The notes: generated by a model from the sequence alone, not told the origin. DNA of 49,048 nt from Candidatus Micrarchaeia archaeon (GCA_049964795.1 JBMFWY010000005.1:1-49048), one strand, 5' to 3'; shown: positions 21,399 to 28,575, numbered from the stretch's first letter. Numbers and translations: made by a program.

Positions 21399-22616
21399 AT
21401 GCGACATGGACTTTTGCGTGCTCTCTTGCCCTTGCTCTTGTTGCTTTCCTTGGCTGGGGTTTCAAGCGCTTCGAGCAGTTGCACTGCGATTCCTACCGAT
21501 CTTTCCATGTCCGTAACTAGCGGCATAAGCACCGCTGTGAGCCTGTCCTTTATAGCGGTACTCTTCTCCTTTGCTATGGTAGCCCTTTCATATATGGTAG
21601 GCGAGGTGCTAAAGGTAGAAGGACTCAAAAAATGGTATCAGGGTGAACTTTGGGAGACAATAAAATCCATACTTATAATGGTGTCTATCTTCTCAATACT
21701 AGTAATAGCAAGTGGCATCGCGACTGCCGTTGCTGGCAATGCTTCCACTGCGCAGTTTTCATTGTCCGGTACGCGCTCTACGCTTGGAACCTACATATGG
21801 GATAATCTTGCCACCTTCTACTATTCGACTTATTGCAACTACATACAGCCCGAGAATACCTCACTCAGCAACAGCTTCGCAGGCGTGTACGGAGTTGCGC
21901 TTGGGACAGATCTTCTGAAAAGCCTTACTCTAGATCTTTATGTGCCAATTCCTCTCCCGGTTCTTCCTCCTGTCTTTGCGGGATTTATGTTTGGGTCCAA
22001 AAGCAACATCTACGTAAGCAGCATAATAGACACTACAGGAAAGACAACCTCTTTTCTGGCGGATTTCACAATGGTAATAATAATGCCGTTGTACTTGCTG
22101 TTTGCCATGCAGGCAAATTACTTCTATCTTATACTAATGCTCGGCCTAGGCTTTTTCTTGCCTTTTGGGATAATACTGCGTGCGATACCAATAGTAAGGC
22201 CCATAGGTGGTACTCTTATGGCTATAGGCATAGGGATAAGCCTTATTTACCCGGCGCTGTTCATATTTATGAACTTGCCAATAACGGCATTGGAAAACAG
22301 CATATTCATTCCGCCAAGCGTGTCGAGCACATCCCTTACTGGCGCTGCAGCAATCTTCAATTATTTCATAACTACCATAATAAACTTTTACACCTCCTGG
22401 GCCAGCACCGCAGCCGGAGGCTTCTGGGCAGGCATTACAGGAATAGCAGGAGTATATGGTCCTTTGAATTACATAACTTATACCCTTGTAGATGTAATAG
22501 TGCAGTTCATGCTGCTTATATTTGACCTGGTGATAGGTATAGTGGTAACGGACCATATAGCAAAGCTGTTTGGCGGCAGGCTTCCTACAGGAATAGGAAA
22601 ATTCAAGGTAGCGTGA
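21399..22616 (+). CDS. CedA/VirB6-like membrane protein, paralog 1
   Basis: GIILRAIPIVRPIGGTLMAIGIGISLIYP motif; N-terminal GELWE hairpin. Confidence 0.65.
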   Translation: MRHGLLRALLPLLLLLSLAGVSSASSSCTAIPTDLSMSVTSGISTAVSLSFIAVLFSFAMVALSYMVGEVLKVEGLKKWYQGELWETIKSILIMVSIFSILVIASGIATAVAGNASTAQFSLSGTRSTLGTYIWDNLATFYYSTYCNYIQPENTSLSNSFAGVYGVALGTDLLKSLTLDLYVPIPLPVLPPVFAGFMFGSKSNIYVSSIIDTTGKTTSFLADFTMVIIMPLYLLFAMQANYFYLILMLGLGFFLPFGIILRAIPIVRPIGGTLMAIGIGISLIYPALFIFMNLPITALENSIFIPPSVSSTSLTGAAAIFNYFITTIINFYTSWASTAAGGFWAGITGIAGVYGPLNYITYTLVDVIVQFMLLIFDLVIGIVVTDHIAKLFGGRLPTGIGKFKVA

Positions 22617-22655
22617 TAAGTTGTTGAATGAAAAAGTGAATTCAAAGTTGATCGA

Positions 22656-23783
22656 ATGGTAAACACTTGCGCCCTATACGGCTCTTTCACAAACGCCAAC
22701 AATTGGATAGGTATAAATGTGCTTGTCTTGATAGTTGGCCTTTCTATAGTAGCCGCAATTTACTCGTTGAGCAGGCTTTTGCCTTCAGATACTCGCGCAA
22801 AGGTTACCGGGATAACGAAAATAGAGATAACGCAGCTTATAATAAGCGCTGTAATAATCGCGTCGCTTATTGCGGCGTCTTCAACAGCTTGTGACATAGC
22901 CGCTTTAATAAGCCGATCTGTGACAGGCACGGCATACTCTCCATTTGTTTTTGCAGATTTCTACATAGGGAATCTCATATACAACAAAGGGCTTGCAATA
23001 TACGCGCAGATATACACCCTTTCGATAACTTACGATATCTATTCTAAGGTTCTTGGCTTTGCAGGTAGCATGATCGCGAGCCTAATACCAGGAGTCGGCG
23101 AGCTGTTCAAATATTCTTTTGGTGGCATCGCGACCATTACCGGAACTTTAGGATACGATGCGGCAATCGCGCTTGGAATATTCAGCACTCTCTTGGTAGT
23201 GATGTTCTCCCCTCTTGTAATAATTGCTGTAGGTATGCTCTTTATCCAATACCTGCTGCTTCCTGTAATACAATACACGATGTTTACAATCGTGCTGCCA
23301 ATAGCGATAGCGATGAGATCGCTTTCCTTTACGGGTGCTGGCCTTCGTTCAGCTTCCAATGCCGTGCTCGCGATAGCCATAGCCGCTTACTTGGTGTACC
23401 CTATAACCGTTGGATTTGACGCTTATACTATGAACTGGCTTTTCAGCGCTTCAAATCCTACCTACACGTTTTTGGCCTCTACCTATTCGCACAACACAGC
23501 TATTCCATCGACATTTCTAAGCACGACAGGTATACCTGCATTCGGGAGCGCGACTTATCCCTCAACCGGCTCTATATTAAGCATGCTGAGCATTTCAGGA
23601 TTTCTCTCAGCGATTTCATTCTCCGAACCGCTTACTATCGTCAACGAGGTATCAGAGCTGCTCTTCCAATCTGTTGTGCTGTTTGGCCTTGACATAGTAA
23701 TAACAATAGGTTTTGCGAGCTCGCTCGCCCGGGCGTTGAACTCTGGCATAGAAGGTGCGGCTTCGTTCTGGAGCAATATATAG
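22656..23783 (+). CDS. CedA/VirB6-like membrane protein, paralog 2
   Basis: AIAMRSLSFTGAGLRSASNAVLAIAIAAYLVYP; IEITQ hairpin. Confidence 0.6.
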   Translation: MVNTCALYGSFTNANNWIGINVLVLIVGLSIVAAIYSLSRLLPSDTRAKVTGITKIEITQLIISAVIIASLIAASSTACDIAALISRSVTGTAYSPFVFADFYIGNLIYNKGLAIYAQIYTLSITYDIYSKVLGFAGSMIASLIPGVGELFKYSFGGIATITGTLGYDAAIALGIFSTLLVVMFSPLVIIAVGMLFIQYLLLPVIQYTMFTIVLPIAIAMRSLSFTGAGLRSASNAVLAIAIAAYLVYPITVGFDAYTMNWLFSASNPTYTFLASTYSHNTAIPSTFLSTTGIPAFGSATYPSTGSILSMLSISGFLSAISFSEPLTIVNEVSELLFQSVVLFGLDIVITIGFASSLARALNSGIEGAASFWSNI

Positions 23784-27404: not shown

Positions 27405-27408
27405 TATC

Positions 27409-28575
27409 ATGAAAATGCAAAATCCGCTGTCAAAAGCTTTTTCGTTCCTCCTGGCAGCTATATTGCTTTTCGCACTTCTGTCAAATATTCCCTTTGCAAA
27501 GATTCCCACAACCACAATATTACCATCTCCACCGCCTTCTTCTTCTTCAAGCGGCCCATGCTCAAATCTGCCAATCTCTATCCAGGAAAATGTCCAGGCC
27601 AATGCTCCCTGGTACTGCCCTATAGATGCCGAAATAGCTTCAGTATGGCAGCAGTACTTTCCTATCGCAGTAATAGCATTGCTCATATCCTTTTCAATCG
27701 CTTCAGTAATCTTTGCGGTAGGAGCAGGCATGAAATATGACAGGTTGCGCAACTTTGGCATAGGAGAGCTCTACGAAGCGACAGCAAGCTCCATAATAGT
27801 ATTGATATTCCTTTTCATCTCGGCAGTAGCGTTTGGCATAATACCCTCAGTTTTTTTCGGTGCGATAAACCCTTATGCCACTGCGTTCCATCTTATGAAT
27901 GAGACTATAGTAGGCGCAGAATCAATATATTCTTCGCTGTTCAACATATACGCTACGGATGCATTTTACACAAGCTTTACTGTATCAATATACTCTGCTT
28001 TGTATCCTGTCCTTACCGGCACAGTTCCTACACTGCTGCAGTCATTCTATGCGCCTATAATGCTTTTCGTTATGGAGCCAGCCAACGCAATTGGCGGGCT
28101 GCTAATAGACGGCATAGCTGCGCTGTTTGCGCAATATTACCTGCTCATATTCTTCGCCTCCGCTTCAATACCTGCATTCCTTGTTCCCGGAGTCATACTG
28201 CGCGCTTTGTTCCCAACGCGCGCTTTTGGAGGTATGCTAATAGCTCTAGCCATGGGCTTTTACATTGTAATGCCTACTCTATTCGCAGTGGTGTACTATT
28301 TCACGACCCCTAACTTAATCAGCAGCATGCAAACAATCTCTTCGCAGCTCACGGTATTGGGCTCAGGGACTGGCGCGGAGACGAACGGGCTTTCTTCCAC
28401 AAGCCCAATTCCTCTTCTGATCTCTAGCGTGGGTAGTGCAATGAGCAGCTTCTGGATGCTTGTGCTGTTTTACCCTCCTCTCATAATAGCAGTAACCTAC
28501 TTTTTTGTGACGCAGGTTTCCGATTTCATAGGTGGTGCCTCTTATTCAGCCGGCAGACTAAGAAGCTTTATATAA
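27409..28575 (+). CDS. CedA/VirB6-like membrane protein, paralog 6
   Basis: GVILRALFPTRAFGGMLIALAMGFYIVMP; GELYE hairpin. Confidence 0.65.
   Translation: MKMQNPLSKAFSFLLAAILLFALLSNIPFAKIPTTTILPSPPPSSSSSGPCSNLPISIQENVQANAPWYCPIDAEIASVWQQYFPIAVIALLISFSIASVIFAVGAGMKYDRLRNFGIGELYEATASSIIVLIFLFISAVAFGIIPSVFFGAINPYATAFHLMNETIVGAESIYSSLFNIYATDAFYTSFTVSIYSALYPVLTGTVPTLLQSFYAPIMLFVMEPANAIGGLLIDGIAALFAQYYLLIFFASASIPAFLVPGVILRALFPTRAFGGMLIALAMGFYIVMPTLFAVVYYFTTPNLISSMQTISSQLTVLGSGTGAETNGLSSTSPIPLLISSVGSAMSSFWMLVLFYPPLIIAVTYFFVTQVSDFIGGASYSAGRLRSFI

What the first reader, a model, noticed from the sequence alone, without database searches (positions are those of the whole stretch)
21399..28575. Six tandem, highly diverged CedA/VirB6-like paralogs: possible hetero-oligomeric channel
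All six share three elements: an N-terminal TM-loop-TM hairpin with E/Q-x-x-E/Q (GELWE, IEITQ, SEFYQ, AEIGE, NQIYE, GELYE); a core motif G-[IV]-[IVL]-x-R-x5-R-x2-GG-x8-G-x4-[YFM]-P (degenerate in paralog 2); and a C-terminal amphipathic helix ending near [LIMF]G. Loops between the TM segments differ and often carry Cys pairs. I saw no obvious DNA-level repeats, which suggests old duplications. The core motif resembles my recollection of CedA. Six subunits would match a hexameric ATPase, or they could be alternative host-specificity subunits.
Basis: partly seen in the sequence, partly recalled or inferred. Interest (0 to 1): 0.85.

Follow-up and report, generated by a model that had tools for sequence, protein, structure and literature searches.

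The report
Six fixed VirB6-like membrane paralogs
A tiny host-dependent archaeon carries six ancient sister genes for membrane proteins, always six and always in the same order, inside a conjugation-like gene cluster, which suggests that they build one mixed membrane platform for exchanging material with other cells.

Summary

They sit in one tight operon between a TrbC/VirB2-type pilin gene and a VirB4/HerA-type ATPase gene. The genome is 0.72 Mb and its relatives carry Micrarchaeota names.

All 43 uninterrupted arrays I examined, from 10 family codes of the class, have exactly six genes. Near relatives give six perfect position clades. Class-wide, positions 2, 3 and 6 hold all 43 members, position 1 holds 42, and no clade has an outsider. 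Genomes with two arrays carry two whole old hexads.

A second, minimal cluster in the same genome reads pilin, one paralog, one bitopic protein, ATPase.

No sequence or profile method links the family to VirB6/TrbL. Two confident AlphaFold models nevertheless retrieve R388 TrwI/VirB6, and one also retrieves DotA, at or near the top over almost full length. The scores are only middling (Z 8.0-9.8).

Best reading: six non-redundant subunits of one VirB6-like platform in a chromosomal Ced/Ted/T4SS-like machine. The hetero-hexamer itself is untested, because the complex prediction never ran.

This scan found the same cluster at least eight times in other Micrarchaeota genomes. I found no paper describing it.

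The parts
19977..20378 (+). Pilin-like protein (133 aa), TrbC/VirB2 type
   Evidence: Pfam PF04956 TrbC, E 1.1e-6, 29.2 bits against a cut-off of 27.9. A pilin-size homologue lies upstream of the array in 25 of 28 relatives' loci.
20535..21266 (+). Polytopic membrane protein of 243 aa, family unknown
   Evidence: No Pfam or NCBIfam family. Several hydrophobic segments. A homologue lies next to the array in 26 of 28 relatives' loci. Not found in the minimal cluster on contig C6.
21399..22616 (+). Paralog 1 (405 aa), signal-peptide-like N-terminus, E-x-x-E hairpin
   Evidence: The position-1 clade holds 28 of 28 near relatives and 42 of 43 class-wide.
22656..23783 (+). Paralog 2 (375 aa), degenerate core motif (A..R..R..S-N), E-x-x-Q
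   Evidence: The position-2 clade holds 43 of 43. Its N-terminal hairpin matches the pilin profile (hhalign probability 84.5%, E 6.9e-6, 56 columns).
23755..25173 (+). Paralog 3 (up to 472 aa; start uncertain), longest loops, E-x-x-Q
   Evidence: The position-3 clade holds 43 of 43. Median length of the orthogroup is 506 aa.
25174..26337 (+). Paralog 4 (387 aa), E-x-x-E
   Evidence: The position-4 clade holds 28 of 28 near relatives and 31 of 43 class-wide.
26346..27404 (+). Paralog 5 (352 aa), Q-x-x-E; this is the one that was modelled
   Evidence: AlphaFold2 model: pLDDT 86.7, pTM 0.79. Best PDB matches are TrwI/VirB6. The position-5 clade holds 28 of 28 near relatives and 30 of 43 class-wide.
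27397..28575 (+). Paralog 6 (392 aa from the TTG; an ATG lies at 27409), E-x-x-E
   Evidence: The position-6 clade holds 43 of 43.
28617..29459 (+). Bitopic membrane protein (280 aa: two N-terminal TM segments plus a soluble domain of about 200 aa)
   Evidence: Paralog of the next gene (BLASTP E 0.002; hhalign probability 100%, though the two input sets overlapped). Present downstream of the array in 25 of 28 relatives' loci. No family found.
29468..30301 (+). Second bitopic paralog (277 aa)
   Evidence: Same evidence as the previous gene.
30310..31827 (+). FtsK/HerA/VirB4-class ATPase (505 aa), only about 55 residues before the Walker A motif
   Evidence: Pfam DUF87/HerA 60.6 bits, AAA_10 50.8, TraG P-loop 37.6. 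NCBIfam CedD 7.8e-22, CedB 1.9e-17 and VirB4-like models about 1e-17, all far below their equivalog cut-offs. PDB: HerA 4d2i 5e-11; VirB4 C-terminal domain 4ag5 1.7e-8 over residues 59-326.

Best explanation
The six genes encode six different, non-interchangeable subunits of one VirB6-type membrane platform. The platform belongs to a chromosomal, domesticated relative of the conjugation (type IV secretion) machine, of the same kind as the archaeal Ced and Ted DNA-import systems.

Proposed working:
- The N-terminal pilin-like hairpin anchors each subunit in the membrane.
- The helical core around the invariant R-x5-R-x2-GG...P element packs the six subunits into one hetero-oligomer. This is most simply one copy of each, giving a pseudo-sixfold ring.
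- The ring sits above the hexameric VirB4/HerA-type ATPase, which is tethered by the two bitopic paralogs.
- The platform takes TrbC/VirB2-type pilin out of the membrane to build a pilus or conduit.
- The variable, Cys-containing outer loops face the host cell.
- DNA or another macromolecule passes between the micrarchaeon and its partner.

Shown here: paralogy, the fixed count of six, fixed order and ancient orthology, one operon, the pilin and ATPase context, and a sister cluster with single copies.

Inferred: VirB6 homology (fold-level and context only), co-assembly, stoichiometry, substrate and direction of transport.
For: (1) Fixed count. The window plus 27 of 31 relatives of the same order with targeted regions have six genes on one contig; the other four are cut by contig ends. 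So do 8 of 8 arrays from five other families and 7 of 7 from four more genomes. That makes 43 of 43 uninterrupted arrays.

(2) Orthology by position.
- FastTree on 168 sequences: each position is an exact clade of 28, support 1.0.
- IQ-TREE on 14 genomes x 6: six exact clades, SH-aLRT 100.
- 288 sequences class-wide: positions 2, 3 and 6 hold 43 of 43, position 1 holds 42 of 43, and no clade has an outsider.

(3) Whole-array duplication. In genomes with two hexads, 47 of 48 nearest-neighbour checks fall in another genome's array. Whole hexads were duplicated, not single genes.

(4) Position-specific signatures are kept within orthogroups: E-x-x-E in positions 1, 4 and 6; E-x-x-Q in 2 and 3; Q/K-x-x-E in 5; A..R..R..[AS]N in 2.

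(5) Tight operon. 195 of 210 junctions are 20 nt or less, median 0.

(6) Context. TrbC/VirB2 pilin and VirB4/HerA ATPase, with the cluster order kept in relatives. A minimal sister cluster in the same genome reads pilin, one paralog, one bitopic protein, ATPase. G152 has only that cluster.

(7) Fold.
- Paralog 5 model (pLDDT 86.7): the top Foldseek hit in the PDB is 8rtd_L, R388 TrwI (E 0.15, probability 0.75). VIA-align ranks 1 and 2 are TrwI: Z 9.8 with 230 of 261 residues, and Z 9.1 with 199 of 217.
- Singleton model (pLDDT 89.6): TrwI has the highest Foldseek probability (0.63, rank 2). VIA-align rank 2 is DotA (Z 8.4, 271 residues aligned) and rank 3 is TrwI (Z 8.0, 234 of 261).

(8) Pilin-like N-terminal hairpin. 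hhalign pilin against position 2 gives 84.5%, against position 4 gives 67.4%. jackhmmer started from the pilin pulls in the position-2 paralog in 11 of 28 genomes. Pilins hit the paralog HMM at about 1e-5. The same relation is reported for CedA/CedA1 and VirB6/VirB2 (PMC9905601, passages).

(9) Precedent. CedA and CedE are both needed, and the authors propose a hetero-oligomer (PMC11868833, passages).
Against: No sequence-level link to VirB6/TrbL:
- Pfam: 0 of 6 paralogs at E<=1.
- TrbL model against the genome: no hit in the array.
- PDB profile searches: empty for VirB6.
- hhalign against TrwI alone and against a 120-sequence TrwI family alignment: probability 1.4% or less.

The fold scores are middling. 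No Foldseek hit reaches E<=0.001. The tool warns that Z 8-10 can arise from common helical arrangements. LTC4 synthase (Z 8.8) and IncA (Z 8.9) score alongside, and the wide search gave only helical-hairpin hits.

Solved VirB6-type assemblies (TrwI, DotA) are pentamers, not hexamers (PMC12857230, passages).

The pilin-to-hairpin match is weak for four of the six positions (probability 3.5% or less).

In more distant orders the hexads stand apart from any detected pilin or ATPase gene.

No binding, expression or stoichiometry data exist.

Distant position-4 and position-5 members do not join the near clades (31 of 43 and 30 of 43).

Some near-complete relatives show only the singleton: G016 at 94% and G033 at 92% complete.
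Confidence: 0.55

Rival explanations
1. Division of labour along the axis rather than a ring. The six paralogs do co-assemble, but asymmetrically or in layers. For example, a VirB6-like pentamer or trimer base is built from some of them, and others have taken over the jobs of components that archaea lack (VirB5 tip/stalk, VirB3/VirB8 connectors, S-layer-crossing parts).
For: Solved VirB6 and VirB5 form stacked pentamers (PMC12857230, passages). Paralog 2 has a conserved degenerate core and the most pilin-like hairpin. Orthogroup lengths differ widely, and some members carry inserts of 500-1300 aa. No VirB5-, VirB8- or VirB10-like gene was recognised in the cluster.
Against: All six keep the same overall architecture and the invariant R..R..P core, which suggests equivalent packing positions. 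Nothing here tests this reading directly.
Confidence: 0.17
2. Six separate homo-oligomeric platforms. Each paralog forms its own VirB6-like assembly, used at different stages, for different substrates, or with different partner cells, and all share one pilin and one ATPase.
For: The singleton paralog in the minimal cluster presumably works as a homo-oligomer. The outer loops differ strongly between paralogs. Rickettsiales keep several VirB6 paralogs (PMC7648143 and PMC2653234, seen only as titles and abstract starts in the listing).
Against: Alternative-use subunits usually show gain, loss and lineage-specific duplication. Here 43 of 43 arrays have exactly six in the same order, and duplication happened only for whole hexads. 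The tight operon argues for equimolar co-expression.
Confidence: 0.13
3. Not a T4SS part at all. The family is an unrelated membrane complex, for example a transporter or an envelope or lipid-handling module. It happens to sit beside the pilin/ATPase genes in this order, and the likeness to VirB6 is a generic helical arrangement.
For: There is no sequence or profile similarity to VirB6. Z scores are only 8-10, and unrelated helical proteins score the same. Distant hexads lie among housekeeping genes, next to giant proteins of unknown function and without a detected ATPase or pilin gene.
Against: The single-copy sister gene sits between a pilin-like gene and a bitopic-protein/ATPase pair in G000 and in G152. 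TrwI is the best or near-best match for two independent models over nearly full length, and DotA also appears. The pilin-like N-terminal hairpin matches what is reported for CedA and VirB6.
Confidence: 0.1

Closest known systems
Ced system of Sulfolobales (CedA and CedE VirB6-like, CedA1 pilin, CedB and CedD ATPases) and Ted system of Thermoproteales (TedA, TedC, TedB)
   Same: It is a chromosomal, domesticated archaeal T4SS derivative with a VirB2-type pilin, a polytopic VirB6-like protein and a VirB4/HerA-class ATPase, and no relaxase or outer-membrane parts. The N-terminus of the polytopic protein resembles the pilin. Sulfolobales already have two VirB6-like paralogs, both required, for which a hetero-oligomer has been proposed (PMC9905601; PMC11868833; passages only).
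   Different: Here there are six fixed paralogs instead of one or two, two bitopic paralogs, an extra 243-aa membrane protein, and an ATPase reduced to the motor domain. The host is a DPANN symbiont with a 0.7 Mb genome. NCBIfam CedB and CedD models score far below their cut-offs. Similarity to CedA or TedA could not be tested, and function (DNA import, damage induction) is unknown.
Bacterial VirB6 family (TrwI of R388, PDB 7o3v/8rt9/8rtd; DotA of Dot/Icm, 9ngy; Pfam TrbL PF04610)
   Same: A polytopic helical protein with an N-terminal two-helix anchor, encoded with a VirB2 pilin and a VirB4 ATPase. It is the best or near-best structural match for two models over 230-271 aligned residues.
   Different: There is no Pfam or profile similarity. 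The bacterial proteins are homo-pentamers stacked with VirB5 (PMC12857230). Here there are six distinct subunits and no recognisable VirB5.
Multiplied VirB6 genes in obligate intracellular bacteria (Rickettsiales rvh systems; Bartonella Trw)
   Same: Several VirB6 paralogs are kept in reduced genomes of host-dependent organisms. 'Four VirB6 paralogs ... interact in Ehrlichia' is a reference title seen. PMC7648143 and PMC2653234 were seen as listings and abstract starts. Two TrwI-named proteins from one Bartonella australis record appeared.
   Different: Those are bacterial, recognisable by sequence as VirB6, variable in number, and often carry huge extensions. Whether they co-assemble is only partly known. 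The tandem arrangement and exact numbers in Rickettsiales are my recollection and come from no call.
Hetero-oligomeric rings that arose from homo-oligomers (MCM2-7, CCT/TRiC, proteasome subunits)
   Same: The number of fixed, ancient paralogs equals the ring order, and each paralog is its own orthogroup. This is a conceptual analogy from general knowledge, not from a call.
   Different: Those are soluble eukaryotic complexes. Nothing here shows a ring.

Membership tests
VirB6/TrbL (Pfam PF04610) | Match to the family's sequence model | tested here: not met
   0 of 6 paralogs hit any Pfam family at E<=1 apart from one chance hit, PsaF at 0.13. The TrbL model run over the whole genome gave one match, E 0.118, on contig C23 and not in the array.
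VirB6/TrbL (Pfam PF04610) | Profile-profile similarity to characterised VirB6 (TrwI) relatives | tested here: not met
   hhalign of A2 against TrwI gave probability 0.2%. The 120-sequence TrwI family alignment against the whole family and against each of the six orthogroups gave 1.4% or less. That TrwI alignment is shallow (Neff 2.4).
VirB6/TrbL (Pfam PF04610) | Fold like solved VirB6 (TrwI) or DotA over most of the protein | tested here: inconclusive
   TrwI is Foldseek rank 1 (E 0.15, probability 0.75) and VIA-align ranks 1-2 (Z 9.8 with 230 of 261 residues; Z 9.1) for paralog 5. For the singleton, TrwI has Foldseek probability 0.63 (rank 2); VIA-align gives DotA Z 8.4 (271 aligned) and TrwI Z 8.0 (234 of 261) at ranks 2-3. 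No hit reaches E<=0.001, and unrelated helical proteins score Z 8.8-8.9.
VirB6/TrbL (Pfam PF04610) | Polytopic protein with 5 or more hydrophobic helices, encoded with a VirB2-type pilin and a VirB4-type ATPase | tested here: met
   Hydropathy and model helices. TrbC pilin above the Pfam cut-off. ATPase matches VirB4/HerA models and PDB 4ag5. The cluster is kept in relatives.
VirB6/TrbL (Pfam PF04610) | Pentameric assembly at the base of the pilus or stalk | not testable with these tools
   The complex prediction was never accepted because the queue was full.
CedA/TedA (archaeal VirB6-like) | N-terminal region homologous to the cognate pilin (CedA1/TedC) | tested here: inconclusive
   hhalign pilin against position 2 gave 84.5% (E 6.9e-6, 56 columns), against position 4 gave 67.4%, and against positions 1, 3, 5 and 6 gave 3.5% or less. 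jackhmmer from the pilin recruits position 2 in 11 of 28 genomes. The protein Atlas places a Micrarchaeota cluster labelled 'CedA1 domain-containing' (PF27251 on 23% of members) near paralog 5 (score 0.88) and near the singleton (0.91); this is a lead only.
CedA/TedA (archaeal VirB6-like) | Sequence or profile similarity to CedA or TedA | not tested
   No CedA or TedA sequence could be obtained with the tools. The NCBIfam scan of the six gave no family at E<=1, but I do not know whether that library holds a CedA model. Two guessed accessions turned out to be other families.
Ced/Ted-type system (whole apparatus) | CedB/TedB/VirB4-class ATPase in the locus | tested here: met
   DUF87/HerA 60.6 bits (cut-off 23.2), AAA_10 50.8 (cut-off 27.5), TraG P-loop 37.6 (cut-off 25.8). 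CedD 7.8e-22 and CedB 1.9e-17, but far below the equivalog cut-offs, so it belongs to the class and is not an orthologue.
Ced/Ted-type system (whole apparatus) | Imports DNA between cells | not testable with these tools
   No experiment was possible, and no sequencing run was listed for the stretch.

The most novel reading that the evidence does not exclude
The six paralogs form a fixed-order hetero-hexameric ring with one copy of each. A VirB6-type platform, homo-pentameric in bacteria, would then have been rebuilt in Micrarchaeota into a six-different-subunit assembly that matches the hexameric motor. That would be a prokaryotic membrane-machine counterpart of MCM2-7 or CCT. It would also be the core device by which these DPANN symbionts dock to host cells and take DNA or other macromolecules from them. 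The separate 'a' and 'b' hexads of other orders would be two such machines with different targets.
Probability: 0.33. Interest if true: 0.9.

Novelty: new variant of a known kind. Interest (0 to 1): 0.75.

Why it matters
How DPANN archaea connect to their hosts and draw on them is an open question. The cultured Micrarchaeota papers I read describe type IV pili and surface proteins but no conjugation-like machine (PMC5498576; PMC8975820; passages only).

A core-genome T4SS/Ced-like apparatus present in most of the phylum is a concrete candidate for that interface (177 of 201 sampled genomes have family members).

For the T4SS field, an obligate set of six distinct VirB6-type subunits would be a natural experiment on two points: what the VirB6 platform does, and how its symmetry relates to the hexameric ATPase.

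The fixed hexad also gives a clear, testable prediction of stoichiometry for cryo-ET or proteomics of existing co-cultures.

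Tried and rejected
Searches that gave nothing
- Pfam and NCBIfam scans of the six paralogs: nothing usable.
- PDB sequence-profile searches with A1 and A2: only chance VP5 hits, or none.
- hhalign against TrwI alone and against a 120-sequence TrwI family alignment: nothing.
- VIA-align wide search: only helical-hairpin matches, Z 9.0 or less, uninformative.
- The two bitopic paralogs (alignment A6): no PDB sequence match below E 0.29 and no hhalign match to R388 VirB4/TrwK (probability 0.5%). 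The 'split VirB4 motor' idea from earlier scan notes is therefore neither supported nor refuted here.
- The look-up of sequencing runs: no run was listed, so no RNA holder is listed.

- PF27251 is not in the local Pfam copy.
- Guessed NCBIfam accessions NF041016 and NF041018 were not CedA.
- Accession BR000038 was not found. NC_028464 was used instead.
- An IQ-TREE run with an incompatible option failed. It was rerun on 14 genomes.

Complex prediction for paralog 5 plus paralog 6
- It never ran. The queue was full, and the other hand-ins were not sent on. There is no verdict on binding.

Readings considered and rejected
- A mobile element. The 12 flanking ORFs I scanned are housekeeping genes or have no Pfam match, with no integrase. 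GC is flat at 0.41-0.46. The cluster is vertically conserved.
- Recent tandem duplication. There are no DNA repeats and the clades are deep.

Not examined
- Array size in G003, G016, G020, G025, G027, G033, G034 and G037.
- For G028 I fetched an arbitrary region (L052) and did not use it.

Full report
**What is in the window**

Eleven co-directional genes form one tight block on the + strand:
- a 133-aa pilin-like protein (19977-20378);
- a 243-aa polytopic protein (20535-21266);
- six polytopic proteins of 352-472 aa (21399-28575);
- two bitopic proteins of 280 and 277 aa (28617-30301);
- a 505-aa ATPase (30310-31827).

From the first paralog onward the gaps are 39, -29, 0, 8, -8, 41, 8 and 8 nt. 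GC content is flat at 0.41-0.46 across the window. I scanned 12 flanking ORFs. They are housekeeping genes (topoisomerase VI B, a class II aminoacyl-tRNA synthetase, a carbamoyltransferase, UDG/NUDIX and others) or have no Pfam match, and none is an integrase or transposase.

The window is a whole contig of a 0.72 Mb genome that is 91.6% complete. Close homologues of paralog 1 carry source names such as 'Candidatus Micrarchaeaceae archaeon'. All 26 of 26 listed homologues lack a Pfam domain, and those that carry a source name are called hypothetical.

The six proteins are 20-27% identical to the first.

Raw BLASTP links most of them. It reports 11 of 15 pairs at E<=10, with a best E of 3e-7, and paralog 2 only at E 4.5. 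With orthologue profiles, all 15 of 15 pairs are homologous (hhalign probability 96.4-99.5%).

In 168 sequences:
- the hairpin has E (139 of 168) followed three residues later by E/Q (163 of 168);
- the core has R (162 of 168), R (163 of 168), GG and an invariant P (168 of 168);
- the C-terminus has [LIM]-G, with G in 140 of 168.

Paralog 2 is degenerate in a way that is itself conserved among its orthologues (A..R..R..[AS]N). Cysteine counts are mostly even. There are no DNA repeats longer than 40 nt.

**The count of six is fixed**

All 41 of 41 genomes of the same order, counting the window's own, have family members.

I fetched the array regions of 31 relatives. Of these, 27 have exactly six tandem members on one contig. 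The other four (G001, G002, G004, G006) are cut by contig ends, and their pieces are compatible with six.

In nine genomes of other families of the class, 15 of 15 arrays again have six. Six of those genomes carry two arrays each.

With the window, that makes 43 of 43 uninterrupted arrays.

I did not examine array size in G003, G016, G020, G025, G027, G033, G034 or G037. G003, G016 and G033 showed a single match, which is the singleton described below.

Phylum-wide, 177 of 201 sampled genomes have a match. Several families have none or few (f10 0 of 6, f15 0 of 4, f11 2 of 10). That tally includes two genomes flagged as unpublished, G054 and G204.

A profile search of 1.84 billion cluster representatives found 2,738 relatives at E<=0.001.

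**Each position is an old orthogroup**

- FastTree on 28 genomes x 6 sequences: each array position is an exact clade of 28, support 1.0, with no outsiders.
- IQ-TREE (LG+G4) on every second genome (14 x 6): six exact clades, SH-aLRT 100.
- All 43 arrays plus 30 singletons (288 sequences, 314 columns):
  - positions 2, 3 and 6 hold 43 of 43;
  - position 1 holds 42 of 43;
  - the singletons form one clade of 30 of 30;
  - no clade contains a member from another position.

Distant members of positions 4 and 5 fall in separate small clades (31 of 43 and 30 of 43 in the main ones), and the deep branching order is unresolved.

In genomes with two hexads, 47 of 48 nearest-neighbour checks point to another genome's array. 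The hexad was therefore duplicated as a block, long ago.

Position-specific signatures are stable within orthogroups.

**A single-copy sister system**

Contig C6 of the same genome carries four genes in a row:
- a pilin-like gene (5177-5725);
- one paralog with the same core motif (5739-6779);
- one relative of the bitopic pair (6787-7536);
- an ATPase (7517-8881).

The singleton has one orthologue in 34 of 41 genomes of the order, counting the window's own. G152, from a family that mostly lacks the hexad, has only this minimal cluster.

This is the plain pilin, polytopic protein, ATPase layout of Ced/Ted-type systems. It shows which component was multiplied.

**Is it VirB6-like?**

By sequence, no:
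- Pfam and NCBIfam gave nothing.
- The TrbL model over the genome gave nothing in the array.
- PDB profile searches gave nothing relevant.
- hhalign against TrwI and against a 120-member TrwI family alignment gave probability 1.4% or less.

By fold, suggestively yes.
- The paralog 5 model has pLDDT 86.7 and pTM 0.79.
  - Its best Foldseek hit among 350,542 chains is R388 TrwI: 8rtd_L, E 0.15, probability 0.75. Two more TrwI chains are in the top 24.
  - VIA-align ranks 1 and 2 are TrwI: 7o3v_G at Z 9.8, rmsd 6.4, 230 of 261 residues, model residues 36-342; and 8rtd_I at Z 9.1.
- The singleton model has pLDDT 89.6 and pTM 0.83.
  - TrwI has the highest Foldseek probability (0.63, rank 2).
  - VIA-align rank 2 is DotA (Z 8.4, 271 aligned) and rank 3 is TrwI (Z 8.0, 234 of 261). 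Rank 1 is IncA (Z 8.9, 162 aligned).
- I take these chains to be TrwI from their residue numbering (to about 272) and, which identifies 7o3v_F as TrwI.

These Z values fall in the range that the tool says helical proteins can reach by chance. The fold evidence is therefore supportive, not decisive.

Independent support comes from three sides:
- The pilin belongs to TrbC/VirB2.
- The ATPase belongs to the VirB4/HerA class.
- The N-terminal hairpin of some paralogs resembles the pilin (position 2 at 84.5%, position 4 at 67.4%). Beltran et al. report the same relation for CedA/CedA1 and VirB6/VirB2 (PMC9905601, passages).

**How it most likely works**

The strict retention of six distinct orthogroups in fixed order, in one tightly packed operon, and duplicated only as a whole, is the pattern expected of obligate subunits of one complex.

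I therefore read the six as one VirB6-type platform that works with the pilin and the ATPase. The simplest stoichiometry is one copy of each.

Against a hexamer, the solved VirB6-type assemblies are pentamers (PMC12857230, passages). A layered or asymmetric assembly is a serious rival.

For Sulfolobales, the authors already propose that two VirB6-like paralogs, CedA and CedE, form a hetero-oligomer (PMC11868833, passages).

Substrate and direction of transport are unknown.

In distant orders the hexads stand apart from any detected ATPase or pilin gene and are often followed by giant proteins of unknown function.

**Novelty**

No paper describing this cluster turned up in six searches. The only paper that holds both 'Micrarchaeota' and 'T4SS' is unrelated. 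The library lacks most subscription journals, and I did not see the supplements.

Within this scan the same cluster was noted at least eight times in other Micrarchaeota genomes, with the same reading. Those are unchecked notes, not evidence.

Noticed in passing
G000 contig C6, about 5177-8881 (loci L003/L063): A second, minimal cluster in the same genome: a pilin-like gene (182 aa), a single paralog (346 aa, same R..R..GG..P motif), one relative of the bitopic pair (249 aa) and an ATPase (454 aa). The singleton has one orthologue in 34 of 41 genomes of the order, counting the window's own.
   Followed up: yes
L056:13673-18592, L058:13478-19806, L060:322-4293, L059:1264-6225: In other orders of the class the hexads are flanked by giant ORFs of 980-1650 aa with no Pfam match. 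No ATPase or pilin gene was detected next to them. They may be surface or substrate proteins.
   Followed up: partly
Genomes G041, G045, G056, G098, G104, G143 (loci L055-L060, L093-L099): Each of these genomes has two complete hexads. They belong to two old lineages ('a' and 'b'), so the whole six-gene array was duplicated as a block.
   Followed up: partly
window 31799-32122 (+), overlapping the end of the ATPase gene: A short frame downstream of the ATPase matches the iterated ATPase profile (E 7.7e-21). A conserved ORF of about 100 aa follows the ATPase in relatives. In G044 the ATPase is 1047 aa long.
   Followed up: no
window 28617-30301: The ATPase has only about 55 residues before its Walker A motif. 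The two bitopic paralogs each carry a soluble domain of about 200 aa. Earlier scan notes call this a split VirB4 motor. I found no sequence support: the PDB profile search and hhalign against TrwK were both negative.
   Followed up: partly
G016 and G033 (94% and 92% complete): These relatives showed only the singleton and no hexad. This may be loss of the hexad or an assembly gap.
   Followed up: no
window 41710-43275 (-): A 521-aa protein with an exosortase/EpsH-type transmembrane domain (Pfam E 1.5e-22), possibly an archaeosortase.
   Followed up: no
window 33597-35984 (+) and 15997-17985 (+): Two large ORFs (795 and 662 aa) close to the cluster have no Pfam match.
   Followed up: no
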